Source of the DNA: a virus
Strand: one strand, 5' to 3'
DNA: 64,000 nucleotides
Virus record (IMG/VR): IMGVR_UViG_3300044971_004534
This document shows positions 5,042 through 49,841 of the stretch, one piece after another (within the stretch, counting starts at the first letter, position 1; every line of letters begins with the position of its first letter). Both the position numbers and the translations under genes were made by a program. The notes beneath the pieces are model-generated. The model ran no database searches and had not been told where the DNA came from. It was given only the letters and a program-made list of their open reading frames with translations.

Positions 5042-5222
5042 TCAAAAAATCAATTTACTTAAAAAGATAGCAGAGCTTAGACAGTCTATAGGTGGCAATA
5101 AGCCTGTTTCTGGTCCCACAAACGCCCCAAAACCCTCTACTCCAGCTGATCAAAAAACAAATAATAACACGAATAATGGATCAAGGGGTTGCGGTGCATG
5201 TTCTCGTAAAAAGAATTCATGA
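5025..5222 (+). CDS. hypothetical small protein ending in a GCGAC-basic motif
   Basis: 65-aa ORF with AGGAGGA upstream. C-terminus 'GSRGCGACSRKKNS' is shared with the ORF ending at 46163. Confidence 0.45.
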   Translation: MENMNNQKINLLKKIAELRQSIGGNKPVSGPTNAPKPSTPADQKTNNNTNNGSRGCGACSRKKNS

Positions 5223-6115
5223 TAGAAGATATAATAAGCGCTTTTAATTCAAAGCGAGATATTTTTGTATCCCCAGAAGATGCTGCTTCTATAATGGAGG
5301 CAGTTAGCCTTTTTATTGATAATGAGCATATAAAGGACAATAGGGTGGCTCGTTTGCCAGAACGCCTTTCTCAGGGCGATTTAGTGGGAGAGTACGTGTA
5401 TGTCCCATTAACTATTTTGGACGTATCAGTATCTTTGGCCATAGATCAGAAATTGTCAGGTCAAACAGTAATGGGGTCAACTCTTTCTAAAATATCTTCT
5501 TTGTCCAATACGGATATGCTATTGTGCAAAATTAATAGAAAAGATTTAGTGCATAAGGACTTTGGTACTGTATGTCTTCTTAATAAGGGTATCCCTAATT
5601 TTAGGGCCCGCTGTGAAAGCATAGTGGTAATGAACGATCATCCACTAGAAGAAATTACTAGATTTACAAAAAGCAAAGAATTTAATGTAGAAATTCTTAT
5701 AATGCGTGATGAAGAAAAATGGAGATATCATAAGTTTACTTTTGCTGGTCAAAATGGTAATATTAATGTAGAAGAAAAAAATGTTATGTCTGCACTTAAA
5801 AAGTATGCGCACCAAGTCCAAGAAGATTTTGAGTCACTTTCTCATGACCCACTAAAGGTGGCGCAAGCTTTAATTTCTGTAGACGTAAACAAAGAGGGGT
5901 TAAGCGAATTACTTAGATATATTGCGGGTGGAAACAAAATAGTTCATGTGGGCTCTAAGGTTGTAGCAAAGCCTACTAATTTGATGAAAAGCAAGTCTGT
6001 AGGTACAGTTGTAGGTAAATCAGCTAATGTTATTAACGTTAAATGGGATGCTGGTTTTATGAAATACAACTTAGATGATCCAAAAACATATTTTTTAATA
6101 GAGTTTGTTGACTAA
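5219..6115 (+). CDS. hypothetical protein (298 aa), immediately upstream of the giant ORFs
   Basis: ATGA overlap upstream and TAATG overlap downstream. No family recognised. Confidence 0.6.
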   Translation: MIEDIISAFNSKRDIFVSPEDAASIMEAVSLFIDNEHIKDNRVARLPERLSQGDLVGEYVYVPLTILDVSVSLAIDQKLSGQTVMGSTLSKISSLSNTDMLLCKINRKDLVHKDFGTVCLLNKGIPNFRARCESIVVMNDHPLEEITRFTKSKEFNVEILIMRDEEKWRYHKFTFAGQNGNINVEEKNVMSALKKYAHQVQEDFESLSHDPLKVAQALISVDVNKEGLSELLRYIAGGNKIVHVGSKVVAKPTNLMKSKSVGTVVGKSANVINVKWDAGFMKYNLDDPKTYFLIEFVD

Positions 6116-9100
6116 TGAATAAGTCTTATAATGCATATGATACTGTAGCGATAGGTATAAGCCAGAACAAGGCTAAGGTGTACTATCAAAAGCTATTAAA
6201 AAATGGAGACAATCTAGAAATAGGTACTGCATTTTCAAGTTGTGAAAAAGTTGTTTTAGATATAAAGTCTTTAGTTAATGCTCAATATGCGCCTGATGGC
6301 AAAGCTACCAAAGAAAGTGTGCATTATTTACTTAATGAAGAAAATCCATTTGACATTATTATTCCATACAGTAACGCACCAAAAAATGCAAGACAAATTA
6401 AAGGCTACATATCTTACAGTAGAAGCAAAAATATAATAGAAATTAACACTAGGTCTATATTTAATAATGGATTTTTTAAATTTAATTTAAAACTTAATTT
6501 TACATCAGATGGAATTACTCGTGGTAAAGTGGTGAAGCAAAAGCCAGTTATGGAGATTACTCCAACAAAAGTGGCAGAAAATCTATTTGACGGATTAAAT
6601 TTAAGGGTTGATAAAAAAGGTGCAAAAGATGATGCTTTAGTTATTGATGAATTCAAAAGGTTCTCTCAAAACAGATTGATAAATTTTTCTGCTCAAGATG
6701 AATACTTTGGATGCGACAGGTACAATGTTCAATACTCTGGATCTGGCGAATTCGTTTTTGATGATGAGGTAAACTTAAAAAATGTGATTATCAAAAACAA
6801 GGCTACTGTTTCTGTTCCATCTGGCTTTCCATTAATATCGGTTATTGACAGAGCCGAAAGTCCTGTTTTAGAAAATGGATTGTTTTACAGAAGGAACAGT
6901 CCTCAATTAGACAGTTCCGTTGTGCACAAACAGTATTTTGACTCTAATGGGGTAGCTTTTTACGATCAGGTAATTACTAGAGGTCTTAAGTCAGCAAGTG
7001 GTGGAGGCGGAAGAAATCATCCTCTTATACACGTCAGAAACATATTTAATTCTGTTGGTAATTATGAAGATGTTCCAATTTTGCATTTTAGAAGAGAATA
7101 TGCAGAAAAAGAAGACAATAAAAATGGCAAAGCGCCATATCACTTTTATTTTTGTCCAAAATATGTTCTTCCCAGTGAGTCTCTTGCTAGTCCTATTGAG
7201 ATGAGAGTAAAGCAATCCGCATTAAATCGTATTGAATTTTCTTTTTCAATTGGTGAAAGATCATTAAATAAAATAGTTTTAAACAGTAAAACTACTGTTT
7301 ATTCTGATGCTGGAAATAAATTCTATTATGGTTCATTAGAGATTGATGTAACTAATGCTACGCAAAATATAAGACTTCCTTATGGTCGATCTAAAGTATT
7401 TTATTCAGATACAATATCAAGTACTCCATTAACTGATCCAGAATATGGATTAACAATCATGGATGTTCTGCATGCTTTGCAAAATAATGTATCCGGCAAG
7501 GTAAATGTGCTAACGGTAGAAGGGACTGGAGGCGGAACTCATGCAGGATTTGTGCCTACTTTTTCTGAGATTGGTATTTTTTCTCCATCTCCAAATGATC
7601 CGGTAGTAGAGTTTATTGAAGGCCATGACTTTATGGGCTGTGCCATGATGCCTGCAGCGCGCATGTGGAATGGCAATGCTGATAATTCGTACCTTACTGC
7701 ATCTGCAGAAGAGTCTGTCGGCGTAACAATTGAAAAAGGAGCTAGATCTGGACGTATATACACAAGAGGACTGGCTCATCATGTTGATTTAGATAATTAT
7801 GTGGCAATTGCCCCATTGTGTAGAGCATTTACTACTCCATTTGTTCGCGGTGAAATTAAATCGTTTCAAAATCATCTTGAAGATGACGATTTTAAACCAA
7901 TTGAATCTGGAGGAAAAGGCTATAACCGATTCTACAAATACAACACTATAAAAAAGAGTATAGAGGTAATGGCTTTTGGTGAAAACTATTTTACCTCCAT
8001 ACTAAATTTGCCACCTAATGAGTCTGAAGCTATGCTGGTAGGTGGACCTGCAAGTAGATCTTTGGGCTTTGGCAAGCTGAGAAAGCTTGTTGGTGCTTCT
8101 CAAATTGGAGTTGCTTTTGATTTTTTAGGAAAAACATATAAAGATCAAAACGGATTTTTTGAAACTACTCCTGCATACATAATGTCTCACATAGGTTTTG
8201 GTGAGCCAAGTGCAATACAATCTGAAAATTTGGTTAAAAAACTTTCAGATTTTTCTGGTGGTTCCAATTTTATATCTTTGCAGTATAAAAATGCCAAAAT
8301 GTTTCCAGGCATAAGCTCTCACAGAGCTTCTGAATATGTGCCAAATCCCAAAAGATACGGAATTAATGCTTACGGAGAAGATATTAAAAATTTATACAAT
8401 GGCGGTATATTTTCTTCGCTTTACACTACTTCAGGTCTTGGTTCTCATATAGAAGTTGAAAACACTGCAGCAAATAAGGACTCTGCATACTACTCACTTT
8501 CTTTAGACCCATTTATATTTGATAATAATGCACTTTTGTGCTATGAGGGTGGTTCTGAATCTGAATCTCCTAAAAGAAGAATAGAGTTATCTCCATGCAT
8601 GAAGTGGATAGATAATGCTCCAGAAAAATCAAAAATTATTTGTGCTTTCTTAAGAAAAGAAATGATTGATTGGGGTAAGGATCGTGGCTGGTCTGCTGGC
8701 AAAACATTAAGCTTTAGTTTTTATTCTTATAGAAGAGATAAAAATACCAACGGAATATTGTCTATCACTGGAAGCGGAAACAAAGATGTGATTTCGTATT
8801 TAAACTATGATGTAGCTACAAAAAATATTTCTTATTCTGACAATTTAGGATCTAGTACTTTTATTGGCAATACGTTGCAGTCTTTTGTTGATGCTCATGC
8901 TTCTACTTTTAATGGTCTTTTAAGCATAGAGGCAAAGCCTGTAATAAGGGCAACTGATGTAATGCCTTATGAAGATTTTGTTTTCAATACTTCTATAACA
9001 AATATTCAAGGCAAAAGACCAGTTGTAGAAATTACATCAGAAGAGCCATACGCCTATCCATACAGTTCATATCCATATGGGGTTCAGTCAGAAAACCCTT

Positions 9101-11955
9101 ATGCTTCTTCATTGTTTAATTTTGTTAGTAATAATTTTTACTCCGAAAATATAGGAACTTTTGAGATACTTTCTAATCCATATAGCTCTTCCTATGATTA
9201 TCCTTATGATGCATACTACGCTGAACCTTATTACATTGAACCATACGTTAATCCATACGAGCCTGCTCCAAAAGTATTAGAAACTGGATTGTTGATGATC
9301 TATAGGAATACTGTTATTCCCAGTATAAAGTCTGGATTTAATTTGCAAATAGATATGATACAGCAGAATAAGTATCCAAGATCTTATAAATTTTACTTAA
9401 ATAATCCGAAGTATAATTCTTTAGATGATCTTATACATGATGTAAATGACAGACTTTCTGAGTTTGGCATTGTAGCAAATTCTTTAGTTGAAAATCCAAA
9501 AGCATATTCTACTAGCAGACTATTTGCTCAAGAGCCAAAAAAAATCGTAGAAGCTAATTATGTATTTAAGAAAGTTTACCCATTTGTAAGGCCGTCTAGT
9601 TTTTCTGCTACTACTACAGAATTACAAGCTGGTCCCTATGACGCTGTTTCAGATATTGTTATTAATGAATATGGCGCATTATTGGATGATAGCATGCTAT
9701 CAAGTGTTTCTGAAAATTCAGAATCGGTATTGGAGTTTACGCCTAACTATGATGTTGTTTCAAATCCATATTACGATATTTCATCTTTAGAAAATGCCTA
9801 CATAAGTCCATATGAATATCCTCAATTCCAGCAAACTTTTGCTGTTGAATCTTTTGGAAAATTACCGATTGTTGAAACTGAAATTATTACTCCAGAAATA
9901 GGAGCGGTAACTTTTGAAAGAATTAGGGTTTCTGAATCTAGTAAGGGCTCTATTGATATAGAATACGATACTTATGATTCTCAGTATTCACAACCTGACA
10001 ATATTAACATAGCGTTTGTGTCAAAATCTACAAATTATAGTGCAGCAAAAAATCAACAAATTTACACCAATAGACCAAGATATACTGTTGGTGCAAGTGA
10101 TTTAAAGGAAAATAGTATTGCTATTGCTTCATCAGTAATGGAAGACGAAAACAGATTTGTTGAATCATCTGATTTAATAAGCAATAATACGATAGATCAA
10201 GATTATTCAAACACAAGTTTTGTTCAAAAATCTCTACTATTACCACCAAATGTTGTCGCATTAGAGGTCGCATATGGTGGATATATATCTAATGGAGTTG
10301 TCAGCACAAATGTTGCTCCAAACACATATTTCTCTAATTATCAACAAAGCGGAATTGGAGATGTTCAGTTTAGAACTATTGATGCAGATTTTGCTTTAGT
10401 TCTTGTTCGTATAGCATATAATGATGGAAAATACGGACCAAATAATGCTGCTGCTGATGACATCGCTTCTATGATAAAAGCGACTGTAAACTATAATTCT
10501 CCTGTAGATCCTGAGTACGTGGTTGGAGAATTTGCTCCTGGAGACACAGTAGAAACTGTGGAATTTATAAATTCTGAAAATGTAACTGAAACCTATCTAG
10601 TATTCCCTATTATGTTAAAAATTCCACTTAAATCTACCGTAAGCTATGTAAACATAAATATGGAAAATGTTGGACTTTCTACATCTGTAAAAATTATAGA
10701 TGCTCCATCTGAACTTAATAACTTTGGGTTTTTGGCAATCAACAAAAATAATCCTAATTATGATATGAAGTCTTCTAAAGACGGCAGAACCTTTGGACTG
10801 GTGCTCGACAATTATGGATTCTGGGATATTTTGATTGCTCCAGAAGGTGTTCTTCAAACATCTGATGCTGGTGAATTTACTTTTAATGGAAGAGGTTATT
10901 CTAGGACGGTTGTTGATACAGATGATAGATTTGTTGCAGGAATAGGGACTCCTATTATAAATGATGTTGATAATGACATAACTGGATTTGACAAGTCCAT
11001 GATACCTGAATCTATTAGGAACAGCATAACTCTCATTCCAGTTCCTGGTTATCAACAAGTTTGGGTTTTGAGAATTGATCCTGCGGTAAAATCTTATCTT
11101 GTGGCAAGAAGAAAAGCTGCTGGGGGATTGAGTCAAGATGGGTGCTATGTTGATATTCCAATATATTTTCAGGCTAATATTACAGAAGCTTCAGGCACTT
11201 GCAATGTTAGAATATTTAATAATGTAAGCTGTGTTTTTGATTATAATTTCTGTGATTTTTTCTGGAATCTTGGCTCTCCACTTCAGCCACCTTCCGCATT
11301 TGTTATACAGGATTCTATAGAAGTAAATTTTATAGAATACATCAATTGTGATTCAGTTGCCAGAATCATAGAGGAAGATGGCATTCAAAAAGTTGAAATT
11401 ACAAGTTACTTCATAATGAACATTGACAAAATACCGATGCTTGACAACGGGACTTCTTTGTTGCTTATAAAGACAAATACTGCAGAAACTCAAGTAAGGG
11501 AAATATTTACCCCAAACAGTGACACAATAGGCCAGCTAAGGACGCCAACTGCCGTCAATCAACAAAGACCATGGGAATTTGACTGCAGTTTTATACCTGG
11601 TGTTGATAAGATTAACAAAACCACTTTGTACACAAATCCTCAAAATTATTTAGAATATACAATAGCAAGTGCTGAAATAGCAAGGGGCATCAATACTTTA
11701 AGCAGATTTATGCTTGTTCAGCCAAAAACAAAGTTCCCTTTATTCGATGAGTTTGGAATGAGTTCTGCAACAGAAAGAGTAATAGCAAGCATAGGATTTG
11801 TATTCAAAGACTGGAAGCCTTCTGCTACAGATTTTTGGCAAGATAGAATGATATTTGGTATAAAATTTGTAATTCCAACTGGGCAGACACAGCCTAATTT
11901 ATTACAAAATTTTTCGATAAGATTCTTATACAATGAAGATAGACGTTTATTATGA
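6115..11955 (+). CDS. giant protein 1 (1946 aa), unknown function, with a Tyr/Pro-rich low-complexity segment
   Basis: Uninterrupted 5.8-kb ORF in AT-rich DNA, where stop codons should be frequent. Translationally coupled at both ends. PY-rich stretch 'EEPYAYPYSSYPYG...YDYPYDAYYAEPYYIEPYVNPYEPAP' at nt 9041-9270. Confidence 0.85.
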   Translation: MNKSYNAYDTVAIGISQNKAKVYYQKLLKNGDNLEIGTAFSSCEKVVLDIKSLVNAQYAPDGKATKESVHYLLNEENPFDIIIPYSNAPKNARQIKGYISYSRSKNIIEINTRSIFNNGFFKFNLKLNFTSDGITRGKVVKQKPVMEITPTKVAENLFDGLNLRVDKKGAKDDALVIDEFKRFSQNRLINFSAQDEYFGCDRYNVQYSGSGEFVFDDEVNLKNVIIKNKATVSVPSGFPLISVIDRAESPVLENGLFYRRNSPQLDSSVVHKQYFDSNGVAFYDQVITRGLKSASGGGGRNHPLIHVRNIFNSVGNYEDVPILHFRREYAEKEDNKNGKAPYHFYFCPKYVLPSESLASPIEMRVKQSALNRIEFSFSIGERSLNKIVLNSKTTVYSDAGNKFYYGSLEIDVTNATQNIRLPYGRSKVFYSDTISSTPLTDPEYGLTIMDVLHALQNNVSGKVNVLTVEGTGGGTHAGFVPTFSEIGIFSPSPNDPVVEFIEGHDFMGCAMMPAARMWNGNADNSYLTASAEESVGVTIEKGARSGRIYTRGLAHHVDLDNYVAIAPLCRAFTTPFVRGEIKSFQNHLEDDDFKPIESGGKGYNRFYKYNTIKKSIEVMAFGENYFTSILNLPPNESEAMLVGGPASRSLGFGKLRKLVGASQIGVAFDFLGKTYKDQNGFFETTPAYIMSHIGFGEPSAIQSENLVKKLSDFSGGSNFISLQYKNAKMFPGISSHRASEYVPNPKRYGINAYGEDIKNLYNGGIFSSLYTTSGLGSHIEVENTAANKDSAYYSLSLDPFIFDNNALLCYEGGSESESPKRRIELSPCMKWIDNAPEKSKIICAFLRKEMIDWGKDRGWSAGKTLSFSFYSYRRDKNTNGILSITGSGNKDVISYLNYDVATKNISYSDNLGSSTFIGNTLQSFVDAHASTFNGLLSIEAKPVIRATDVMPYEDFVFNTSITNIQGKRPVVEITSEEPYAYPYSSYPYGVQSENPYASSLFNFVSNNFYSENIGTFEILSNPYSSSYDYPYDAYYAEPYYIEPYVNPYEPAPKVLETGLLMIYRNTVIPSIKSGFNLQIDMIQQNKYPRSYKFYLNNPKYNSLDDLIHDVNDRLSEFGIVANSLVENPKAYSTSRLFAQEPKKIVEANYVFKKVYPFVRPSSFSATTTELQAGPYDAVSDIVINEYGALLDDSMLSSVSENSESVLEFTPNYDVVSNPYYDISSLENAYISPYEYPQFQQTFAVESFGKLPIVETEIITPEIGAVTFERIRVSESSKGSIDIEYDTYDSQYSQPDNINIAFVSKSTNYSAAKNQQIYTNRPRYTVGASDLKENSIAIASSVMEDENRFVESSDLISNNTIDQDYSNTSFVQKSLLLPPNVVALEVAYGGYISNGVVSTNVAPNTYFSNYQQSGIGDVQFRTIDADFALVLVRIAYNDGKYGPNNAAADDIASMIKATVNYNSPVDPEYVVGEFAPGDTVETVEFINSENVTETYLVFPIMLKIPLKSTVSYVNINMENVGLSTSVKIIDAPSELNNFGFLAINKNNPNYDMKSSKDGRTFGLVLDNYGFWDILIAPEGVLQTSDAGEFTFNGRGYSRTVVDTDDRFVAGIGTPIINDVDNDITGFDKSMIPESIRNSITLIPVPGYQQVWVLRIDPAVKSYLVARRKAAGGLSQDGCYVDIPIYFQANITEASGTCNVRIFNNVSCVFDYNFCDFFWNLGSPLQPPSAFVIQDSIEVNFIEYINCDSVARIIEEDGIQKVEITSYFIMNIDKIPMLDNGTSLLLIKTNTAETQVREIFTPNSDTIGQLRTPTAVNQQRPWEFDCSFIPGVDKINKTTLYTNPQNYLEYTIASAEIARGINTLSRFMLVQPKTKFPLFDEFGMSSATERVIASIGFVFKDWKPSATDFWQDRMIFGIKFVIPTGQTQPNLLQNFSIRFLYNEDRRLL

Positions 11956-26700: not shown

Positions 26701-29700
26701 TTCATCTGGTGAAAATTCATCTTCAAGCTCTTCTTCAAGTGAAGATATTGCGCCATGTCCTTGCGTGCCCCAGTCTTCAAGTAGTTCAAGTTCAAGTTCA
26801 AGTTCAAGCAGTGAGATTTCTTCATCCTCTTCTAGTTCAAGCTCCTCAAGTTCAAGTTCTTCTAGTGCTTCATGCCCAGATTGTGGAGATAGTCCGTCTA
26901 TTATTATAGACAGGGATGATTGGCTAAGTGGTATAGTTAATTGCCATAAAGTTGGATTTGATTCTGGATCAGTCATAAGGATAAAATGGTTTCAAGTTTG
27001 TTCTCTTTGCTGCACTTGTCCTACAGAAAGACAGTTCACAAGAGAATGTGAAATCGAAATAAGCATATTTGATATTGATTGTCAGAGTTGGTCTGCAATT
27101 TGGCAATATCTTATTAGTACAGGACAAGTAGAAGAAATTAGATGCAGCGTAGATGGTGGTTCTTGCAGATTTTATTATAGAGTAGATTTTGACAGAGATC
27201 CAGATTTGCCAAATATATTTTATTGGAGATTTACAGAAAACTTCCAAACATTTTTCCCAGATTATCCTGCCAATTGCGAATGTCCTCCATGTGATCCAGA
27301 TCCATCATGCTGTGACTCGTCTTGCTTTGGCTTAGGCACCATGATAAAAATGGCAGATGGTAGTGAGAAAAGAATTGAAGACATTAAGGAAGGTGATATT
27401 CTTTTAGCAGCTTATTTCAACGAGTTTGGAGTTGCCAGAAATCCTACTTTAGAGCAAATAAACAGTGGTTGGACTTTAAGCGACTCTAGATATATCAGGT
27501 TCGCTGAAACCAGAGTAAAGAGCATAAAGGTTGGATCTGAGCTTTCTATATATAAATTTTCTGATTCATTAAAGCTTACTTTTGAACATCCTGTATTTAT
27601 AATGGATGTAGACGGCACTTTAAAATTTAGAAGTGCTGTGTATATGCAAGATGGCGTTTATGGATATGACGTAAATCTTGAAATGATTCCGATGAGATAT
27701 TTTGAAGAAATAAATAGAAAATCAATCACTATTACTCTCACAACTGAACCTTTCCATTGCATATTTGCAGGAAATATATTAGTGCACACTGGTTCTTCAG
27801 GTAATTACACAAATACAGTTGGTTTTGGTGAAATAGGCATTAATATAAATACTGATATTTATACAGATCCAGTCTCTCCAGCCACATCTGTTATTGACGA
27901 TGGCTCTACTGGTTACAGTTTTATTTCAGACGGATTAGGCACAGTAAATCCAGGGACTGGTGGTCCAATTGACGACAGTGGAGTAATTGTAGACAGCCCT
28001 TATGTTTGTCAATTTGCTTGCAGATGTTTAAGCGGAAATTGCAGCACAGTTAGTTTCGTAAGTTCCTGGAAGCTTGGAACGCCTATACAGTTCTGCGCAG
28101 ATCCTACGGCGTGCTGTAATAATGGAAGTTGTACAAGAGGTAATGCAGACTGTAAAGACGTATCTGACAACTCCGTATTGATTGAAAGAACTATAGTCGC
28201 CAATAGTTGTGCTGATGCTTGTAGAAAATGTGCTGCTCTTGCTACGCAAAGTGTTGATTTTGTAAACAGCCCTTCTTTTGAATGCGCAAACGCTTCACTG
28301 ATATGTACATCATCGGGTTCATCTTCATCTTCCGTTTCTGCTTCGTCTTCAAGTAGTAGCTCCGAAATAACTGGTGAAGAGGTTGTTTTGTGGCTGAATC
28401 CTCCAATGGCTGCAGTTGACGTTGGCAATGGACTTATGTCAGTTTCTGGTGCTCCTACTGCTCATTTATTAAGTAACGGCAATGATGGGCAAATGTTGGC
28501 TCAAAGATTTGCTGTACCAGACAATTGTCAATGGCGTGTTTATAAATTTAGAATGTGGGGCGGTAGCGAATACGTGGACGAGCCTGTTGGTGGAGCGGGT
28601 GGCAACAGCTTGTCAAGTAATATACAAGCTATAAGAATAAACATCTTTAAGTTCCAGGCATCTTCTGGTAATTGGGAGTTGTATAATTCTACTACTGGTT
28701 ATTTAAAAATGGCTTCAGGTTTGATTTTAAATGATCAGGGAAGCACTATGGGCATATTTGGATCTAAGCATTTTCAAATTGACATGGAGTTTAATCCATC
28801 TGTTTCTACTATTTTGGACAGTGGGGATTATTTGCTTGGTATTGGTGGCGTGCATTCTTTGACTGGCCCTACCGCTCCAGAAAAACTTCTGTGGACATAT
28901 AGTGAGTTTGGGACTGCAACCAGCCCTGGGCAATACTCGACTACCAATTTAAACTGGGGAAATTGGGTTGATAGCAATCAGAACACAAGTTTAGCAGCTG
29001 CTCTCATAGGAATAAGAAGTTCAACATGCGTAGTGTCAAGCTCTTCAAGCTCTTCCGGCTTGGGATCTCAATCTTCTAGTTCTTCTTCTGATTTGTCGAG
29101 TTCATCTTCTAGTTCTTCCTCCGTAGGTGCTTGTACGCAATCTTTTGGTCATTGGAACAATAGCAGTGGAACTCCAGTATACTCTGAAATTATTGATTTA
29201 TCTGGATTTGAAGTACAAACCGATACATCTGGAGAGTTTATTGACGTGTGTGTTGAATATATGACTGGCTCAGATATTTCTGACAGAATTCTAATAATAG
29301 CAACAAAAGACGATGATGAGGTTAGTACTGATGAATTCTTAAGAAATGGGGATATAGACTATTCTTACTACGCAAATATTGATAATTACATAAATGGTCA
29401 GGAGAGTAGGTTCTCTATTTCCTCAGGACATCCATTAATCGCCTACAACGGCTCCTCTTTTGCGCCACCATTGCGATCATTGATATTTGATAGCGGTTGT
29501 GCTTTAACTGGAGACACAAATTCCACAGTTACTTCTATAAGGCTTAGAAAAAATTCTGTGTCATTAGACCCAACTGATCCAATGTATAAAAAGTTCCGAT
29601 TGGTTGTATTCGGAGTTTGTGATGTAGCTTTTGCTCCAAATAGTATTACAAATTGGTGGATTACATTTAAGTGTGATATTGCAAATTGCGTTGTAACTTC

Positions 29701-31600
29701 ATCAAGCAGTTCATCTTCGTCTTCTTCTAGTTCTGTTCTGTCTAGCTCTAGTTCATCCAGTAGCTCTTCAGTCTGCACTAAAATATGGTCTGGACCAGGA
29801 TGTCCAGATGTCAATAATGATGGATTTGTAGATTCTCTTGATCTTGGACTTTTAAATGGTATCTGGGGTGCTGTTGATTATGACAATAGAATATCCGTAG
29901 CGTCAGATTTAAATGGAGATGGCTTTATAGACGGGCAAGATATGATTATTCTATTAAGTAACGGTGGATGTATAGAATGTCCTAATTTTCAATGGCCCAT
30001 TTCTTCATCTAGTTCCAGTAGTTCCAGTAGTTCCAGTAGTTCCAGTAGTTCCAGTAGTTCCAGTTCTTCTATACCCTCCGGTCCTCCGCTGCCGTATTAT
30101 GGCTCAAACAAATTTGGTAGATTCATGGTAGATGCAAGAGATGGTAAAAACATAGTTGACATTATGTATATAGGACAAGATGCTAACTATTGGGTTCCTG
30201 CCTTAAATAGAGGTTTTAATTTACTTAATGTAAAAGCTTTTGGTACACCGTTTGCTCCCGCCTTGATGTCTACATCATTTGATGTTGTAAGTAATGTTGC
30301 TCATCTTTCTGCGGATTGGGATGCTGGATCAAATGCTAGATCAAGTGAAGTTGGCACTCTAAAAATTTTCAAAGGTGGTAGTCTTTTTGCCGGAGACGCG
30401 ATACATGAAGCCATGCATACATCTGTTACTCCATATGGAAAAGCTTTGGAGTGGGGGTATGTTCCAAAGATAGATGGTGAGTACTTCATAGAGTATGCTT
30501 CAGGAATGTATATATCAAATGGACCACCAAGCTTGGGCATCCCTATAGATAGCGTTTCAAAACTGGAGTACAGAGTTTTAAGAGTATCTGGTTATACAGG
30601 AAGTTACTCCATGTCTGTGGACACTTATGATGCAAGTAGAAATTATGCTGTATTGCCAGTAGTCAGTAATCAATCAAGTGACCTGATATGGGTAAGTGAC
30701 AGTTTGGAATTTATGTATAATCCATTAGTTCATGGAGTAGAAGGCTTGCGTTTTGCATGTACTGGAAGTGAAAATTTAGGACTCACTTCTGGAATAAGCG
30801 GAGACTTTGGAGTTGGATTGCATAGTTTGCACAAGAATGAAATAAGCGGTCTCGCGATTACTCCATTCCACACGTATGGTCAGGCAACATTTGAGTCATT
30901 AAATTCCGATCTTAATAGACCTGAAACCATTTTTACTTTAGAAACTTATCTAAACGCGATAAATGAAAGATCTGTGTCTGCTTACAGTAAGCTGCCAGGA
31001 GCAGAAGGCGGCTCAGGAAGAATGGTATTCTTCATACAAGCCAATTCGTCTTCTGAATCAACTATGATTAATGACATCATATCGATTAAAGATAAAATTA
31101 CTGCTACATGTTTAGGTTTAGGTTTTGATGAAAACAACTTTACATTCGCCATTATGATACCAGCTCCTATAAGTGAATTCGACTTAGAGTTTGTCAGTCT
31201 TCGTCAAAGCATTGCTGATGCAATACTTGCTCAAAGTAGCTCAATCGCAAATATATCTTTCATAAACATTCCAGCTATTTTCTCTTATACGCAAATGATA
31301 GAAAATGGCTGGGCAACAATTGCGATCACGCCAGTCGAAGAAAATCCAACAAGTCAATTTGCTTTACTGACAGGAGGACAGTGCTGTGAGACTTATACTA
31401 ATTGCTGCCCGAGCGTGCCAGTTTGCACAGGCGGTACTTGCACTTATGTAAGATGCTGGAATTGCTCAGAAGACGCTCCTGGCTTCGGCGTGTGCGGAGT
31501 GGTCATGTCAACAGATCCAGACACAGGAGGAAGTTCTTCAGATACATCTGGTGGAGGCAGTAGCAGCTCTTCTAGTAGTGAAAAAAATCCATTTATTTAA
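23747..31600 (+). CDS. giant protein 3 (2617 aa), modular: propeller-like repeats, Ser linkers, Hint domain, dockerin-like module, HExxH and Cys-rich C-terminus
   Basis: Uninterrupted 7.85-kb ORF. At least 7 Ser-rich linkers separate the modules. 'DGNLYG..., GRLYT...' repeat pattern at about nt 25175-26650. See the sub-features listed separately. Confidence 0.9.
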   Translation: MIRNPFETTQYASNFLKENIILDSSGIGLTGIDVLMEFLVNQTRIRQEAIRIGYISNNPSRIDGEDYSQVSLLGLSFDTPQNIYDGSLLIVSAIKQMFSGHPSELYEKLAYRPTIIQYQDPDDGVYVSRTGGFFHKIVDPSSDVEQPNDDYFEFFDDPEFVDGQYLTSGDIDRFNSPPSFTDPSNPYATLNEYLKDQVKWVNSTIAILNKLKYIHKKLVFTYPFAGISFGSGCSFAKNISSTTTPDSNGKPVEIILDMSEVVASCVDGTDSYGYLCIRWRSVGNGSRFIVMPTVGATAAQTAALRQPIWGALTVNPASDQPYVHSNSGNQGYLNSANYISYASSEGILKTWDPETNTVFDRPVSPILRSGCQNAPCCTTNDNTNNIPFREGGNDVNSDFACININNTFFSTGTGSDWDNKIRIVIFSGCQSASSNTSWELELNCLGCTDCNVTLTECGGIPSSSSSSEDINFGIFILDDSNKIGKIDVITGNLSGRILTVKDDAGNPLEDNLHDIDFDTDGNLYGLAQSGILYVISKSTGKATVVGNTGLTNTNGLGFGQDGRLYTINNTTLYYLNKQNAGTNQVGSIGYTGSGDICTSRSGPNRLIVSAKNGNNNFILELSVGANSVTSQVKLSGSRVVPRVFGLARPLSLSAGPLAVADQKIYVFNRFDTSDASMTVVSDFSQSGLCCAVGAAYWNGNFENDEGGGGGGNFDFPQCDNIPVWTVGRDNVLKQVNIKNGDSLKSYTLQGATFDSFYGCPTDLAVNDSGDIYLIDNSNLYRVLLPFVDAPVQDVATAILIGRLLEGSSAVAFAGLTFGKDGILYGCMVEGVTNPISTIPAYPLFKIDPQTAECTAVCTDMGVGCQGDVAPWTDANGVNWFYLVGANEDHNQIYRFRYGGEGDCGELELISDPDTFQYGTDVFSISNARDNKIYVIAGTQVLKIDPITNTITETGVSISGSHSHGSGWLPNDVLADGCSDNSSSSSSSGENSSSSSSSSEDIAPCPCVPQSSSSSSSSSSSSSEISSSSSSSSSSSSSSSSASCPDCGDSPSIIIDRDDWLSGIVNCHKVGFDSGSVIRIKWFQVCSLCCTCPTERQFTRECEIEISIFDIDCQSWSAIWQYLISTGQVEEIRCSVDGGSCRFYYRVDFDRDPDLPNIFYWRFTENFQTFFPDYPANCECPPCDPDPSCCDSSCFGLGTMIKMADGSEKRIEDIKEGDILLAAYFNEFGVARNPTLEQINSGWTLSDSRYIRFAETRVKSIKVGSELSIYKFSDSLKLTFEHPVFIMDVDGTLKFRSAVYMQDGVYGYDVNLEMIPMRYFEEINRKSITITLTTEPFHCIFAGNILVHTGSSGNYTNTVGFGEIGININTDIYTDPVSPATSVIDDGSTGYSFISDGLGTVNPGTGGPIDDSGVIVDSPYVCQFACRCLSGNCSTVSFVSSWKLGTPIQFCADPTACCNNGSCTRGNADCKDVSDNSVLIERTIVANSCADACRKCAALATQSVDFVNSPSFECANASLICTSSGSSSSSVSASSSSSSSEITGEEVVLWLNPPMAAVDVGNGLMSVSGAPTAHLLSNGNDGQMLAQRFAVPDNCQWRVYKFRMWGGSEYVDEPVGGAGGNSLSSNIQAIRINIFKFQASSGNWELYNSTTGYLKMASGLILNDQGSTMGIFGSKHFQIDMEFNPSVSTILDSGDYLLGIGGVHSLTGPTAPEKLLWTYSEFGTATSPGQYSTTNLNWGNWVDSNQNTSLAAALIGIRSSTCVVSSSSSSSGLGSQSSSSSSDLSSSSSSSSSVGACTQSFGHWNNSSGTPVYSEIIDLSGFEVQTDTSGEFIDVCVEYMTGSDISDRILIIATKDDDEVSTDEFLRNGDIDYSYYANIDNYINGQESRFSISSGHPLIAYNGSSFAPPLRSLIFDSGCALTGDTNSTVTSIRLRKNSVSLDPTDPMYKKFRLVVFGVCDVAFAPNSITNWWITFKCDIANCVVTSSSSSSSSSSSSVLSSSSSSSSSSVCTKIWSGPGCPDVNNDGFVDSLDLGLLNGIWGAVDYDNRISVASDLNGDGFIDGQDMIILLSNGGCIECPNFQWPISSSSSSSSSSSSSSSSSSSSSSSIPSGPPLPYYGSNKFGRFMVDARDGKNIVDIMYIGQDANYWVPALNRGFNLLNVKAFGTPFAPALMSTSFDVVSNVAHLSADWDAGSNARSSEVGTLKIFKGGSLFAGDAIHEAMHTSVTPYGKALEWGYVPKIDGEYFIEYASGMYISNGPPSLGIPIDSVSKLEYRVLRVSGYTGSYSMSVDTYDASRNYAVLPVVSNQSSDLIWVSDSLEFMYNPLVHGVEGLRFACTGSENLGLTSGISGDFGVGLHSLHKNEISGLAITPFHTYGQATFESLNSDLNRPETIFTLETYLNAINERSVSAYSKLPGAEGGSGRMVFFIQANSSSESTMINDIISIKDKITATCLGLGFDENNFTFAIMIPAPISEFDLEFVSLRQSIADAILAQSSSIANISFINIPAIFSYTQMIENGWATIAITPVEENPTSQFALLTGGQCCETYTNCCPSVPVCTGGTCTYVRCWNCSEDAPGFGVCGVVMSTDPDTGGSSSDTSGGGSSSSSSSEKNPFI
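26783..26806 (+). repeat. perfect 6-bp tandem repeat (agttca x4) within a Ser linker
   Basis: Read directly: agttca agttca agttca agttca. In frame, encodes Ser-Ser units. Confidence 0.9.
27323..27790 (+). other. Hint (Hedgehog/intein-like) autoprocessing domain inside giant protein 3
   Basis: N-terminal block 'CFGLGTMIKMADGSEKRIEDIKEGDILL', block B 'LKLTFEHPVF' (TxxH), C-terminal block 'FHCIFAGNILVHT'. About 156 aa. Terminal Asn is replaced by Thr and the next residue is Gly. Confidence 0.7.
29807..29970 (+). other. dockerin-like duplicated Ca-binding module inside giant protein 3
   Basis: Two 12-residue EF-hand-like loops, each followed by a helix: 'DVNNDGFVDSLDLGLLNGIWG' and 'DLNGDGFIDGQDMIILLSNGG'. 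Confidence 0.65.
30011..30064 (+). repeat. perfect 9-bp tandem repeat (agttccagt x6) encoding poly-Ser
   Basis: Read directly from the sequence. In frame (AGT TCC AGT). Part of a run of about 24 Ser. Confidence 0.95.
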
Positions 31601-31676: not shown

Positions 31677-32045
31677 ATGGCACCAAAAGAAGATAAATCA
31701 GATAATGATTCTATGAATAAACTAAATTTTATTTCTAATATAGGTCAAACTTTTTGGACTGTTATTGTTGGTGCTGGAGTGTTTTTTGCAACCATGTATT
31801 CAACTCAATCTGTAGTAAATACTAGAATATCTTATATAGAAGAAGAAATACATAGCTTGCAGCAAAGTGACAAAAAAATAAGTGACGATCTTCAAAATTT
31901 AAGTACTAAGCAGAATACAATATTGATGGATATTTCAAATAGGCTTAGGGACATGGAAGTAAAGCTAACAGAATTGCAAGTTAGAGTGCTTTACGCTCTT
32001 GAAGCAAAAGATTCTGCCAAAAAATCTCAAGAAGCTCCTAAGTAA
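31677..32045 (+). CDS. small membrane protein with C-terminal coiled coil (122 aa)
   Basis: AAGGAG 8 nt upstream of the ATG. Hydrophobic segment 'FWTVIVGAGVFFATMY' followed by a heptad-like charged region. Confidence 0.6.
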   Translation: MAPKEDKSDNDSMNKLNFISNIGQTFWTVIVGAGVFFATMYSTQSVVNTRISYIEEEIHSLQQSDKKISDDLQNLSTKQNTILMDISNRLRDMEVKLTELQVRVLYALEAKDSAKKSQEAPK

Positions 32046-33260: not shown

Positions 33261-33265
33261 ATAAT

Positions 33266-34879: not shown

Positions 34880-34901
34880 AGGTATTTTTTTTCCTTCATA
34901 G

Positions 34902-34934
34902 TAATAATATCCATACTGGAGAAAGATATGCCAA
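34902..34934 (-). promoter_or_regulatory. candidate promoter (TTGGCA-N16-GGATATTATTA) for the AAA+/VWA operon
   Basis: On the minus strand: TTGGCA, 16 nt, GGATATTATTA, about 20 nt upstream of the ATG at 34879. Same GGATAT-type element as three plus-strand sites. Confidence 0.35.
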
Positions 34935-35518
34935 ATATTTTCAAAATAGAACAATTTAAGAACTTTGATGCCCCTGTTGGTTCTGTGCGAATCATAGGAC
35001 CCGGAGCCTCAAGGTCCATACCGATTAAGCAAACTGGCTACTCCATAAGATTGATGGACCTTTTGCAGGCCATTGCCGCTCAGCTTAAAAATTCTTTTAT
35101 GGAATCTAAAATTCACACTATAGACACCAGTCCAATTGCTGATGCAAAAGTGCTAGGATTGGCGAAGGTTGACATTCAGGGTGGTCCAGATGGGTATGTT
35201 GATAGGGAGTCTGGCAAAATTTATGTTGATGTAGAGAAGATTGTCAATCATGTAATGAATGGAATGTTTCCTCCAAATGTTCAGTTGCCCAATGAGGGGG
35301 CGTCTTTAGATCCTGATTTAAAAAAATCTATAGCTAAAAAAGTATACGAAGCCATTGCTCGCCAGGTCGCAGACACAGTTGCTCACGAGACTCACCATAA
35401 GAAAAGAACTATTTTAGACATAAGAGAAGGCAAGCCCGTTGACTACAACCCAGAAGCTGAGGCTGAATCTGCTGGAAGACAATTTGGGCAAAGCTTTTCT
35501 GCCCCCTCTCAGTTTTGA
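34928..35518 (+). CDS. hypothetical protein with HExxH motif
   Basis: 'VAHETHHKK' near the C-terminus. I prefer the ATG at 34928 (GGAG upstream) over the track start at 34871. Confidence 0.5.
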   Translation: MPNIFKIEQFKNFDAPVGSVRIIGPGASRSIPIKQTGYSIRLMDLLQAIAAQLKNSFMESKIHTIDTSPIADAKVLGLAKVDIQGGPDGYVDRESGKIYVDVEKIVNHVMNGMFPPNVQLPNEGASLDPDLKKSIAKKVYEAIARQVADTVAHETHHKKRTILDIREGKPVDYNPEAEAESAGRQFGQSFSAPSQF

Positions 35519-36101: not shown

Positions 36102-36105
36102 CAGC

Positions 36106-38678: not shown

Positions 38679-38718
38679 TCTTCTTCCCAAAAAACAACTT
38701 ACAAGCTATCTGAGTCAA

Positions 38719-42009: not shown

Positions 42010-42021
42010 TCAGGAAAGAAT

Positions 42022-46655: not shown

Positions 46656-46742
46656 GGACAGATGTCCGAGTGGTTGAAGGAGCAGCATTGGAAATGCTGT
46701 GTACGGGAAACCGTACCGTGGGTTCGAATCCCACTCTGTCCG
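46656..46742 (+). tRNA. tRNA-Ser (anticodon GGA), class II with long variable arm
   Basis: Hand-folded. Acceptor GGACAGA/TCTGTCC. D arm TCC-GAGTGGTTGAA-GGA. Anticodon stem CAGCA/TGCTG with loop TTGGAAA. Variable arm GTACGG-GAAA-CCGTAC. T arm GTGGG-TTCGAAT-CCCAC. Discriminator G. Confidence 0.9.
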
Positions 46743-49812: not shown

Positions 49813-49841
49813 TATTTATATTTTTCGAGGACTTTCGGTCC

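What the first reader, a model, noticed from the sequence alone, without database searches (positions are those of the whole stretch)
6115..31600. 25.5-kb operon of three translationally coupled giant ORFs (1946 + 3931 + 2617 aa)
Seen:
- Three consecutive uninterrupted ORFs occupy about 40% of the window.
- They are joined by start-stop overlaps: TAATG at 6113-6117, ATGA at 11952-11955 and TAATG at 23745-23749.
- The DNA is AT-rich, so frames this long are very unlikely to be open by chance.
- I see no polymerase, terminase, portal or capsid-like motif in them.
- They contain propeller-like repeats, poly-Ser linkers, a Hint domain, a dockerin-like module, an HExxH site and Cys-rich segments. 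That is the vocabulary of extracellular or surface proteins.

Inference: these proteins form a giant secreted or virion- or cell-surface fibre or adhesin complex. The Ser linkers would be natural substrates for the glycan locus at 49.8-64 kb. I cannot tell whether such an assembly has been described.
Basis: partly seen in the sequence, partly recalled or inferred. Interest (0 to 1): 0.8.

Follow-up and report, generated by a model that had tools for sequence, protein, structure and literature searches.

The report
Giant three-protein phage adhesin module
Three real, overlapping giant genes (about 8,500 amino acids in all) of an uncultured huge phage encode a conserved core carrying swappable sugar-binding, docking and self-cleaving modules, most likely a giant surface fibre or adhesin, with no relative among studied phages or solved proteins.

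Summary
ORFs A (6115-11955, 1946 aa), B (11952-23747, 3931 aa) and C (23747-31600, 2617 aa) exist with the stated TAATG/ATGA/TAATG overlaps.

- **Real genes.** The same coupled triplet occurs in related huge-phage contigs of up to 370 kb. dN/dS is about 0.1.
- **Dark sequence.** A and B match nothing in Pfam, PHROGs, NCBIfam, PDB or cultured phages. AF2 models of A are low-confidence and nearly all-beta.
- **C is a mosaic.** A conserved about 460-aa N-domain and a Cys-rich + Hint core persist in all orthologues. Propellers, dockerins (1 to at least 3) and other modules are gained, lost or moved at poly-Ser linkers.
- **Hint.** It is a non-splicing, bacterial-intein-like autoprocessing domain.
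- **HExxH.** It is not conserved, so it is chance.
- **Export.** No signal peptides or TM helices are present.
- **Ancestry.** A compact ancestral cassette exists in other huge phages: A-like, then a VWA protein, then a C-N-like protein, then glycosyltransferases.

Best reading (confidence about 0.5): a stoichiometric giant fibre/adhesin complex released or displayed at lysis, probably on the virion, with C as a Hint-processed, modular binding subunit. Virion association is inferred, not shown. I rate it a new variant of a known kind, interest about 0.6.

The parts
5219..6115 (+). 298-aa ORF translationally coupled to A (its stop overlaps A's ATG in TAATG). Conserved directly upstream of A in all relatives.
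   Evidence: No Pfam or PHROG family. Its C-terminus weakly resembles the C-terminus of the 890-aa tRNA nucleotidyltransferase protein that precedes the A-like gene in the compact cassette (E 4e-4).
6115..11955 (+). ORF A, 1946 aa. No known family. No Cys-rich or Ser-rich segments.
   Evidence: 12 full-length homologues with 42-100% identity. dN/dS 0.096.
6115..8994 (+). A N-terminal region (aa 1-960). Conserved, predicted mostly beta.
   Evidence: AF2 mean pLDDT 48.5. No Foldseek PDB hit with E<1e-3.
8995..10260 (+). A central variable region with Pro-Tyr-rich low-complexity stretches (aa ~961-1382).
   Evidence: pN 0.29. In the distant relative L013 a separate 382-aa PY-rich ORF sits here.
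10261..11952 (+). A C-terminal domain (aa 1383-1946), the most conserved part of the locus. It defines a wider family, occurring as a stand-alone ORF or as the C-terminus of 1265-1456-aa proteins.
   Evidence: pN 0.073. L013 570-aa ORF is 38% identical, E 2.5e-128. 40 clusters in the representative library. AF2 gives tandem beta-sandwiches at pLDDT 53.6, with only generic Ig-like Foldseek hits.
11952..23747 (+). ORF B, 3931 aa. Non-repetitive, essentially no detectable family.
   Evidence: Orthologues of 3149-3947 aa. dN/dS 0.13.
11952..12611 (+). B N-terminal domain (aa 1-220), highly conserved. Followed by a poly-Ser linker (aa 224-253, nt 12621-12710).
   Evidence: pN 0.083..
12732..15911 (+). 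B region with weak beta-propeller signals (RCC1-like around aa 570-650, FG-GAP-like at aa 1114-1146).
   Evidence: FG-GAP_2 E 0.035. HERC1/RCC1-like E 0.014 with a 6-sequence profile. WD40_RLD 'weak' on an orthologue. All below significance.
15912..23744 (+). B dark region (aa 1321-3931), conserved but with no match anywhere.
   Evidence: profile searches A2 and A4 against PDB found nothing. Split into separate ORFs in one relative, L008.
23747..31600 (+). ORF C, 2617 aa. A modular mosaic with 14 Ser runs and 80 Cys.
23747..25126 (+). C N-terminal domain (aa 1-460), present in all C orthologues and in ~354-367-aa proteins of the compact cassette. Candidate anchor to the rest of the complex.
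   Evidence: 52-78% identity in close orthologues, 32% in L013. dN/dS 0.048. Profile hits to compact-cassette genes at E 1.7e-12, 3.4e-12 and 1.5e-16.
25154..26671 (+). Two propeller-like modules (aa 470-705 and 715-975) of tachylectin/NHL/DUF4394 type. Present only in the window and its closest relative. The second is the fastest-evolving part.
   Evidence: Tachylectin 27.1 bits (cut-off 29.8), DUF4394, DUF5074, NHL. Absent from L011, L012 and L013. pN 0.44 for propeller 2.
26873..27322 (+). Cys-rich module preceding the Hint domain (aa 1043-1192). The poly-Ser linker aa 981-1040 lies just upstream (nt 26687-26866).
   Evidence: A Cys-rich stretch precedes the Hint domain in every orthologue.
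27323..27796 (+). Hint (bacterial-intein-like) autoprocessing domain, aa 1193-1350. It has Cys-1 (C1193), TxxH (T1278, H1281) and ends ...LVHT|G.
   Evidence: Invariant catalytic positions in 4 aligned orthologues, and an L013 Hint hit. Profile against PDB: bacterial Hint domains 6y75/6tmm E 2.8e-4, BIL domain 2lwy E 3.6e-3, inteins. pN 0.10. Pfam hits are below cut-off.
27797..29698 (+). Cys-rich module 2 (aa 1351-1521), module X (aa 1541-1762) and module Y (aa 1794-1984), separated by poly-Ser linkers. Y is present in all orthologues but at a different position.
   Evidence: module map; no Pfam family.
29771..30001 (+). Dockerin type I module (aa 2009-2085), bracketed by Cys, with two DxNxDGxxDxxD calcium loops.
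   Evidence: Dockerin_1 26.4 bits against cut-off 22.9. 36 bits/2 stretches in L004 and 65 bits/3 stretches in L012. An extra copy is inserted in a Ser linker of L004.
30071..31597 (+). Module Z (aa 2109-2545, holds the non-conserved HEAMH), plus a C-terminal Cys-rich knot and Ser tail.
   Evidence: No PDB match.
31677..32045 (+). 122-aa ORF with one TM helix and a coiled coil, weak holin match. Same strand, directly after C. Possibly part of the same late unit.
   Evidence: phrog_1296 holin, E 3.5e-4. Conserved in L004, absent in L012.
32046..34954 (-). Convergent DUF2201 (metallopeptidase-like + VWA-like) and MoxR-type AAA+ ATPase pair. Conserved next to C in relatives. Link to the giants is unproven.

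Best explanation
The locus is a late-acting structural module of an uncultured huge phage (relatives of 224-370 kb).

**Assembly (inferred).** Three translationally coupled genes, together with the coupled 298-aa ORF upstream, produce A, B and C in fixed proportion. The products assemble into a complex of about 0.9 MDa per protomer (my estimate from residue counts). Assembly goes through the slowly evolving junction-proximal domains: A C-terminal domain, B N-terminal 220 aa and C N-terminal 460 aa.

**Route outside (inferred).** None of the three has a signal peptide or membrane anchor, yet C is built from modules that work outside cells: calcium-dependent dockerins, Cys-rich knots, lectin-type propellers and poly-Ser spacers. 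The complex therefore most likely reaches the outside at lysis. It would be attached to the virion as a giant fibre or decoration, or less likely released free, and would mediate binding to host or environmental glycans and surfaces.

**Role of C (part shown, part inferred).** C is the specificity subunit. Its N-domain and its Cys-rich + Hint core are fixed. Binding modules are swapped, duplicated or moved at the poly-Ser linkers between related phages.

**Hint processing (chemistry inferred).** The Hint domain has the nucleophilic Cys-1 and the TxxH block. It lacks the terminal Asn and the +1 nucleophile needed for splicing. It should therefore cut C between S1192 and C1193 through a thioester. 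This either matures the protein or transfers the N-terminal fragment onto another nucleophile.

**Shown:** gene reality, conservation, coupling, module map, Hint and dockerin identity, absence of export signals.
**Inferred:** complex formation, extracellular or virion location, adhesin function, cleavage.
For: - **ORFs and overlaps:**
- **Conserved coupled triplet in relatives:**
- **Purifying selection:** dN/dS is 0.10-0.13. The lowest pN values are in A C-terminus (0.073), B aa 1-220 (0.083), Hint (0.10) and C N-domain (0.14). The highest are in C propeller 2 (0.44) and B aa 2001-2300 (0.37).
- **No export signals:** no hydrophobic 19-mers and no signal-like N-termini.
- **Dockerin:** above the Pfam cut-off and multiplied in orthologues.
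- **Cys:** 71 of 80 Cys are conserved.
- **Module shuffling at Ser linkers:**
- **Hint:** catalytic positions are invariant, with matches to bacterial Hint/BIL structures.
- **Minimal C in L013:** it consists of N-domain + Y + Cys-rich + terminal Hint.
- **A:** predicted nearly all-beta with tandem sandwich domains. The only, weak, structural neighbours are multi-Ig surface and virion proteins.
- **Phage context:** Holliday junction resolvase, clamp loader, dNMP kinase, sigma factor, tRNAs, IMG/VR membership.
- **Holin-like ORF** on the same strand directly after C.
- **Glycosyltransferase genes** in the window and directly after the compact cassette.
Against: - No homology to any tail-fibre, baseplate, capsid-decoration or other virion family: PHROGs gave none, and tblastn against 50,697 phage records gave none.
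- The neighbours are replication, nucleotide-metabolism and auxiliary genes, not a structural module.
- AF2 models are low confidence and the Foldseek hits have TM about 0.1, so the fold evidence is weak.
- No cohesin partner for the dockerins was detected in A, B or C.
- Propeller assignments are below family cut-offs.
- Hint cleavage, complex formation and location are untested.
- The holin match is weak, and the ORF is missing in one relative.
Confidence: 0.5

Rival explanations
1. A free (not virion-bound) extracellular scaffold released at lysis. This would be a cellulosome-like or integrin-like multi-lectin complex. It would bind host polysaccharide, biofilm matrix or particles, for example to keep progeny near hosts or to mask receptors on debris.
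For: - Dockerins, lectin-type propellers, Cys-rich modules and Ser linkers are present.
- No structural-module context and no virion-protein homology.
- The compact cassette has a VWA adhesion-type protein in B's place.
- B has weak FG-GAP signals.
Against: - A strongly conserved N-terminal anchor with variable distal modules is the classic layout of virion receptor-binding proteins.
- Devoting about 11% of a 224-kb genome to a non-virion product is costly (my inference).
- No cohesin was detected.
Confidence: 0.17
2. An intracellular assembly acting inside the infected cell, such as a scaffold, compartment or cytoskeleton-like structure, or a host-takeover machine. It would possibly be matured by the neighbouring MoxR ATPase and VWA/DUF2201 protein.
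For: - No signal peptides or TM segments.
- The locus sits among replication and nucleotide-metabolism genes.
- A MoxR + DUF2201 pair is conserved next to C.
- A VWA protein sits in the compact cassette.
Against: - Dockerins, dense conserved Cys clusters, lectin-like propellers and long poly-Ser spacers are typical of extracellular proteins.
- The rapid module turnover in C looks like adaptation to an external, variable ligand.
Confidence: 0.12
3. A polymorphic-toxin-like or effector delivery system. The Hint domain would release variable C-terminal effector modules of C, as pre-toxin Hint domains do in bacterial polymorphic toxins.
For: - The Hint domain is followed by a highly variable C-terminal region.
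- The best structural-sequence match is the Hint domain of an ADP-ribosyltransferase toxin precursor.
Against: - No toxin domain was detected in any orthologue.
- The terminal residue is Thr or Ser, so C-terminal release by Asn cyclisation is not expected in the window's protein.
- In the minimal version (L013) almost nothing follows the Hint domain.
- No secretion or trafficking domain is present, and no immunity-like small ORF pattern was examined.
Confidence: 0.06
4. Internal virion (ejected/cargo) proteins or a giant virion RNA polymerase, as in crAss-like phages, where several giant adjacent ORFs encode packaged proteins.
For: - Several giant adjacent ORFs without homologues in an uncultured phage resemble the crAss-like arrangement (my recollection; not tested against those proteins beyond the tblastn).
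Against: - No polymerase motif or family was found.
- The A models are nearly all-beta.
- Disulfide-type Cys knots, dockerins and propellers are implausible for proteins that must unfold to pass through a tail (inference).
- No match in the phage collection, which includes crAss-like genomes.
Confidence: 0.03

Closest known systems
Long tail fibres / receptor-binding proteins and head or tail 'whisker' fibres of large myophages (including the multi-thousand-residue fibre proteins of T4-like cyanophages and the decorated jumbo phages reviewed in PMC13282480)
   Same: - Very large, beta-rich, non-enzymatic proteins made without export signals.
- A conserved proximal (N-terminal) part with fast-evolving, exchangeable distal modules.
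- Several fibre subunits encoded side by side.
- Auto-cleaving C-terminal domains are known in some fibres and spikes (intramolecular chaperones; my knowledge).
   Different: - No sequence or profile similarity to any fibre or baseplate family.
- Not located in a recognisable structural module.
- Processing would be by a Hint domain rather than an S74-type chaperone.
- Dockerins and poly-Ser linkers are not typical fibre parts.
- Virion association is not shown.
Bacterial intein-like (BIL) / Hedgehog-type Hint autoprocessing domains
   Same: - Cys-1 nucleophile, TxxH block and C-terminal hydrophobic block ending in His-X.
- Embedded in variable, extracellular-type proteins.
- In the minimal orthologue the layout is Hedgehog-like: cargo domains followed by a C-terminal Hint.
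   Different: - The terminal residue is Thr or Ser in the window clade (Asn only in L013), and +1 is Gly or Ala.
- Neither splicing nor C-terminal cleavage is expected.
- The acceptor of the predicted thioester is unknown.
- The host protein is a phage giant protein.
Cellulosome-type dockerin-bearing modular proteins with Ser/Thr-rich linkers
   Same: - Type I dockerin with duplicated calcium loops.
- Modules strung on long Ser linkers.
- Copy number of dockerins varies between relatives.
   Different: - No cohesin, glycoside hydrolase or CBM family was detected.
- No signal peptide.
- Encoded by a phage.
Giant bacterial adhesins (T1SS RTX adhesins such as SiiE/LapA; giant Omnitrophota dockerin-type proteins, bioRxiv 10.1101/2023.11.21.568195)
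   Same: - Size, beta-rich build, and dockerin/EF-hand modules in the Omnitrophota type.
- Presumed attachment role.
   Different: - No tandem repeats at all.
- No RTX or T1SS signal, TM anchor or secretion locus.
- Split over three coupled genes.
- Viral.
Compact 'A-like - VWA protein - C-N-like' cassette of other huge phages (found here: L014, L015, L017, L018)
   Same: - Homologous A C-terminal domain (E 1e-53 to 1e-76 by BLAST) and homologous C N-domain (E 1e-12 to 1e-16).
- Same upstream genes (resolvase-like and 209/223-aa protein) and same gene order.
   Different: - The middle gene is a 615-663-aa VWA protein with no detectable similarity to B.
- The C-like protein is only ~354-367 aa, with no Hint, dockerin or Ser linkers.
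- A tRNA nucleotidyltransferase fusion precedes the A-like gene.

Membership tests
Hint superfamily (BIL/Hog-type autoprocessing domain) | N-terminal nucleophile (Cys/Ser) at position 1 | tested here: met
   C1193 is invariant in the four aligned orthologues and is followed by the typical xGxGTxIxMADG...GD.LL block.
Hint superfamily (BIL/Hog-type autoprocessing domain) | Block B TxxH motif | tested here: met
   LTFEHP: T1278 and H1281 are invariant.
Hint superfamily (BIL/Hog-type autoprocessing domain) | Statistically supported similarity to known Hint domains over both N- and C-terminal blocks | tested here: met
   The 4-sequence profile against PDB gives 6y75/6tmm at E 2.8e-4 (two aligned stretches), BIL 2lwy at E 3.6e-3, plus PI-SceI and Prp8 inteins. 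Pfam Hint models stay below cut-off.
Hint superfamily (BIL/Hog-type autoprocessing domain) | Autoproteolytic activity | not testable with these tools
   Needs expression of the Cys-rich + Hint segment with a C1193A control.
Intein (protein splicing element) | C-terminal Asn (or Gln/Asp) followed by a +1 Cys/Ser/Thr, and contiguous conserved exteins | tested here: not met
   The window and L004 end in HT|G. L011 and L012 end in HS|G. L013 ends in HN|A. The downstream sequence differs between orthologues and there is no homing endonuclease.
Dockerin type I | Score above Pfam gathering threshold | tested here: met
   26.4 bits against 22.9 in the window. 36.1 bits in L004 and 65.3 bits (3 stretches) in L012.
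Dockerin type I | Duplicated calcium-binding loop DxNxDGxxxxxD | tested here: met
   DVNNDGFVDSLD (aa 2021-2032) and DLNGDGFIDGQD (aa 2054-2065), read.
Dockerin type I | A cohesin partner | tested here: not met
   No Cohesin hit in A, B or C at E<=0.1. The rest of the phage genome and the host were not searched.
Phage tail fibre / baseplate / receptor-binding proteins | Homology to a known virion fibre or baseplate family | tested here: not met
   PHROGs gave 0 families for A, B and C. tblastn against 50,697 phage records gave no match. Foldseek shows only generic Ig-like arrays at TM ~0.1.
Phage tail fibre / baseplate / receptor-binding proteins | Conserved proximal anchor with variable distal binding modules | tested here: met
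   The C N-domain has dN/dS 0.048 and is present in all orthologues. Distal modules are gained, lost or moved.
Phage tail fibre / baseplate / receptor-binding proteins | Location in the virion structural gene module | tested here: not met
   The flanks encode dNMP kinase, clamp loader, epimerase, resolvase, MoxR/VWA, dCMP deaminase and a sigma factor.
Phage tail fibre / baseplate / receptor-binding proteins | Presence in purified virions | not testable with these tools
   Uncultured phage; no proteomics available.
Beta-propeller lectins (Tachylectin/NHL/DUF4394) in C; FG-GAP/RCC1 propellers in B | Score above family threshold | tested here: inconclusive
   Tachylectin 27.1 bits against 29.8, DUF4394 21.7 against 29.6, NHL 15.3 against 20, FG-GAP_2 14.7 against 23. 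RCC1-like E 0.014 with a profile.
Zinc metalloprotease (HExxH) | Conserved HExxH motif | tested here: not met
   HEAMH in the window corresponds to IYESLH in L004. No peptidase family hit.
SGNH/GDSL esterase (module Z) | GDS...DxxH catalytic blocks and similarity to SGNH proteins | tested here: not met
   GDS and DTQH are seen only in the L012 copy. The window has GQD and lacks the DxxH segment. No Pfam or PDB profile hit.
Giant repetitive T1SS adhesins | Tandem Ig-like/RTX repeats and a C-terminal secretion signal | tested here: not met
   No internal repeats by BLASTP. No RTX, Big or cadherin families.
Polymorphic toxins with pre-toxin Hint | Recognisable C-terminal toxin domain and N-terminal trafficking domain | tested here: not met
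   No such domains in the window or orthologues. Immunity genes were not examined.

The most novel reading that the evidence does not exclude
The module is not an ordinary fibre but a Hedgehog-like covalent attachment device of a virus. The Hint domain of C converts the S1192-C1193 bond into a thioester. It then transfers the lectin-bearing N-terminal fragment (N-domain + propellers + Cys knot) onto a hydroxyl or amine. The acceptor could be another subunit, the capsid, or a host-surface glycan. The dockerin-bearing C-terminal fragment would dock separately. Together they would form a self-assembling, partly covalent, cellulosome-like adhesion scaffold, built from an ancestral 'A - VWA - C-N' cassette.
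Probability: 0.1. Interest if true: 0.9.

Novelty: new variant of a known kind. Interest (0 to 1): 0.6.

Why it matters
**What is unusual.** About 11% of a 224-kb phage genome is spent on three proteins. They have no detectable relatives among studied phages, solved structures or curated families, yet they are under strong purifying selection across a whole clade of huge phages.

**If they are virion fibres.**
- They would be among the largest multi-subunit receptor-binding machines described.
- They would show how huge phages diversify host or substrate binding, by shuffling dockerin, lectin and Cys-knot modules at poly-Ser linkers on a fixed anchor.
- They would add Hint autoprocessing to the phage structural toolbox.

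**What becomes testable.** The compact-to-giant series gives a tractable evolutionary path. It runs from the ~360-aa C-like protein, through the 1021-aa minimal C, to the 2500-2700-aa mosaics.

**Practical point.** Poly-Ser runs of more than 200 residues break assemblies (L011). Word-indexed searches also miss or are swamped by these proteins, so such genes are probably under-reported.

Tried and rejected
**Searches that found nothing**
- Word-indexed homologue searches for C were swamped by poly-Ser words.
- The search for full-length B timed out.
- A clean 900-aa B segment found nothing, not even itself. Very long proteins seem absent from that index.
- A pattern scan of metagenomes using the C alignment found nothing.
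- A scan of GTDB genomes with the A C-terminal profile found nothing.
- Literature searches found no description of this triplet.
- A link to the 'moraphage' lineage could not be verified.

**Structure prediction**
- Both AF2 jobs on A gave low-confidence models with only generic Foldseek hits.

**Hypotheses rejected**
- HExxH metalloprotease: the motif is not conserved.
- Intein: the splice-junction residues are wrong.
- Repetitive adhesin: no repeats.
- crAss-like giant RNA polymerase or cargo: no motif or family, all-beta models.
- Tape-measure protein: A and B lack the helical character expected of one; this is inference only.
- Sec, T1SS or T9SS secretion: no signals or families.
- Homology between B and the VWA protein of the compact cassette: none by profile search.
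Full report
**1. The observation**

The window holds three consecutive + strand ORFs: A at 6115..11955 (1946 aa), B at 11952..23747 (3931 aa) and C at 23747..31600 (2617 aa). The junctions read TAATG, ATGA and TAATG. GC is 0.33-0.40. By my estimate about 7% of random codons would then be stops, so open frames of this length cannot be chance. The 298-aa ORF at 5219..6115 is coupled to A in the same way, so the coupled run has at least four genes.

**2. Are they genes?**

Yes.
- An IMG/VR contig of 223,646 bp carries the same triplet (1936, 3947 and 2671 aa) with the same overlaps.
- Amino-acid identity to that relative is 76% (A), 66% (B) and 64% (C). About 43-51% of the identical residues use different codons.
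- NG86 gives dN/dS of 0.096, 0.13 and 0.13, with dS saturated at 1.7-2.4.
- A has 12 full-length homologues with 42-100% identity.
- Their contigs show the same upstream genes and a 3600-3800-aa gene downstream. These include a 369,758-bp JGI contig and a 131-kb NCBI metagenome contig.
- A second scan recovered complete B and C orthologues (3763 and 2506 aa), a partial locus, and a distant relative.

**3. Context**

The flanks are phage-like.
- Upstream in relatives: dNMP kinase and clamp loader.
- In the window: an epimerase; a Holliday junction resolvase; a convergent DUF2201/VWA + MoxR ATPase pair; dCMP deaminase; a sigma factor; a SET-domain protein; a Zn peptidase; a TilS-like PP-loop protein; a GMP-reductase-like protein; an SNF2 helicase; two tRNAs; and a glycosyltransferase-rich block.
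- No capsid, portal, terminase or tail gene was recognised in the window.
- There is no cultured relative. The SNF2 helicase reaches only 22-25% identity to phage proteins.

**4. What the proteins are made of**

- **Family searches.** A and B have no Pfam, PHROG or NCBIfam family, no PDB relative by sequence or profile, and no tblastn match in 50,697 phage records.
- **No repeats.** BLASTP finds no internal repeats and no modules shared between A, B and C.
- **No export signals.** None of the three has a hydrophobic segment of TM strength or a signal-like N-terminus.
- **B.** It has a strongly conserved 220-aa N-domain, a poly-Ser linker, and then about 1000 aa with sub-threshold RCC1-like and FG-GAP-like propeller signals. 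The remaining 2600 aa match nothing.
- **A.** It has a conserved 960-aa N-region, a variable Pro-Tyr-rich middle, and a very conserved 560-aa C-terminal domain.
- **A models.** AF2 with 9-10-sequence MSAs gave low-confidence, nearly all-beta models (pLDDT 53.6 and 48.5). Foldseek returned only generic tandem Ig-like arrays at TM about 0.1. This fits a structural or adhesive protein but identifies nothing.

**5. C is a mosaic on a fixed core**

The window's C reads, in order:
- N-domain (aa 1-460)
- two propeller-like modules (aa 470-975; Tachylectin, NHL and DUF4394 just under cut-off)
- Ser linker
- Cys-rich module
- Hint (aa 1193-1350)
- Cys-rich module
- Ser linker, then module X
- Ser linker, then module Y
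- Ser linker, then dockerin (aa 2009-2085; above cut-off)
- Ser linker, then module Z
- Cys knot and Ser tail

Comparison of five orthologues gives the following.
- The N-domain, the Hint domain and module Y are always present.
- Y sits right after the N-domain in three genomes and after the Hint domain in two.
- The propellers, X and both flanking Cys modules are confined to the window and its closest relative.
- Dockerins number 1, 2 or at least 3. In L004 an extra one is inserted inside a Ser linker.
- Ser runs range from 6 to more than 200 residues.
- pN is lowest in the Hint domain (0.10) and the N-domain (0.14), and highest in propeller 2 (0.44).
- 71 of the 80 Cys are conserved.
- The HEAMH motif is IYESLH in the orthologue, so it is not an active site.
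- An SGNH-like GDS...DxxH pattern seen in one orthologue's Z module has no statistical support and is absent from the window's copy.

**6. The Hint domain**

- Cys-1, the TxxH block and the C-terminal block ending in His-X are invariant.
- A 4-sequence profile matches bacterial Hint domains (6y75/6tmm, E 2.8e-4, both blocks), a bacterial intein-like domain (2lwy) and inteins.
- The last residue is Thr or Ser, and Asn only in the distant L013. The +1 residue is Gly or Ala.
- The domain therefore cannot splice. It should perform only the N-terminal acyl shift and cleavage. This follows from established Hint chemistry and was not tested here.
- In L013 the whole C protein is N-domain + Y + Cys-rich + terminal Hint (1021 aa). 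That is a Hedgehog-like layout.

**7. A compact ancestor**

- The A C-terminal profile finds 40 clusters among 1.84 billion representatives. They include about 20 clusters of 1265-1456-aa proteins that carry the domain at their C-terminus.
- Their loci come from other huge-phage contigs of up to 229 kb. They share the resolvase-like gene and the 209/223-aa gene with the window.
- The gene order there is: tRNA nucleotidyltransferase fusion, A-like, a 615-663-aa VWA protein, a ~354-367-aa protein, then glycosyltransferase-like genes.
- The ~354-367-aa protein matches the C N-domain profile at E 1.7e-12 to 1.5e-16.
- No similarity between B and the VWA protein was detected.
- The giant triplet is thus an expanded version of an older three-gene cassette. 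None of the compact proteins has a PHROG family.

**8. Interpretation**

Three things point to a fixed-ratio complex:
- the conserved start-stop coupling;
- the concentration of constraint in the junction-proximal domains (A C-terminus, B N-terminus, C N-terminus);
- the persistence of gene order.

C's extracellular-type modules, together with the lack of any export signal, point to release at lysis. The fixed anchor with variable distal modules is the pattern of phage receptor-binding proteins.

A weakly holin-like ORF follows C on the same strand. This hints at late expression.

I therefore favour a virion-attached giant fibre/adhesin with C as a Hint-processed specificity subunit, at a confidence of about 0.5. 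What weakens this reading is the absence of any homology to virion proteins, the non-structural neighbourhood, and the poor structure models.

The rivals are:
- a free extracellular scaffold (0.17)
- an intracellular assembly, perhaps served by the adjacent MoxR/VWA pair (0.12)
- a polymorphic-toxin-like device (0.06)
- packaged cargo or polymerase proteins (0.03)

**9.

The glycan idea remains untested.
- The glycan genes are real.
- An epimerase is syntenic upstream of the cassette in many relatives.
- Glycosyltransferase-like genes directly follow the compact cassette.
- This is circumstantial support only.

**10. Novelty**

Giant phage fibres, BIL/Hint domains and dockerin-bearing modular proteins are each known. 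Their combination appears undescribed in the literature I could search. That combination is a three-gene, 8,500-residue, clade-conserved phage module with no detectable relatives among characterised proteins. I rate it a new variant of a known kind, interest 0.6.

Noticed in passing
window 46656-46742 and 55260-55332: The phage encodes tRNA-Ser(GGA) and tRNA-Gln(TTG). TCT, which the GGA anticodon can read, makes up 39-43% of Ser codons. A, B and C together hold 1056 Ser. The poly-Ser linkers use mixed Ser codons rather than a simple DNA repeat.
   Followed up: partly
window 31677-32045 (+): A 122-aa ORF directly after C has one TM helix and a coiled coil, with a weak holin match (phrog_1296, E 3.5e-4). 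It is conserved in L004 (29936-30310) but absent in L012.
   Followed up: partly
window 32046-34954 (-): A DUF2201 (metallopeptidase-like + VWA-like) gene and a MoxR-type AAA+ ATPase pair lie convergent to C. They are conserved in the same place in L004 and L012. Whether they serve the giant proteins is unknown.
   Followed up: partly
window 36947-37441 (+): A SET-domain protein (Pfam SET, E 1.7e-12) is encoded next to a sigma-factor-like gene (36037-36999). A lysine-methyltransferase fold is unusual in a phage.
   Followed up: no
window 38656-39609, 41212-42009, 41900-43072: An M43/reprolysin-like Zn peptidase, a TilS-like PP-loop ATPase and a GMP-reductase/IMPDH-family protein are encoded here. 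These look like auxiliary genes typical of huge phages.
   Followed up: no
window 49797-63388: A glycan-modification block contains three GT2 genes (one fused to methyltransferase and GT1-like parts, 786 aa), a glucosyltransferase-like gene on the - strand (57709-58326), a sulfotransferase and a GT10 fucosyltransferase-like gene.
   Followed up: partly
L008 15964-25967: In one relative (ENA scaffold, 162 kb) the B orthologue is broken into at least three ORFs in different frames (1537 aa, 1201 aa, >566 aa), and the gene caller missed them. This is either assembly indels or a naturally split B.
   Followed up: partly
L011 13015-17336: The C orthologue runs off the contig end inside an uninterrupted run of more than 200 Ser codons. 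Such linkers probably fragment assemblies and hide these genes.
   Followed up: no
L014/L015 (Logan contigs, up to 228,840 bp), L017, L018: This is a compact cassette in other huge phages. An 890-aa tRNA nucleotidyltransferase (PolyA_pol + HD) fusion protein is followed by an A-like protein, a VWA protein and a C-N-like protein. A sialyltransferase-like gene and a GT8-like gene come next. An IS605-family transposase lies nearby in L014/L015.
   Followed up: partly
(method): The word-indexed protein search returned nothing for B or C, not even the query itself, although 1853-1988-aa A homologues were found. Proteins well above ~2000 aa seem not to be retrievable there.
   Followed up: no
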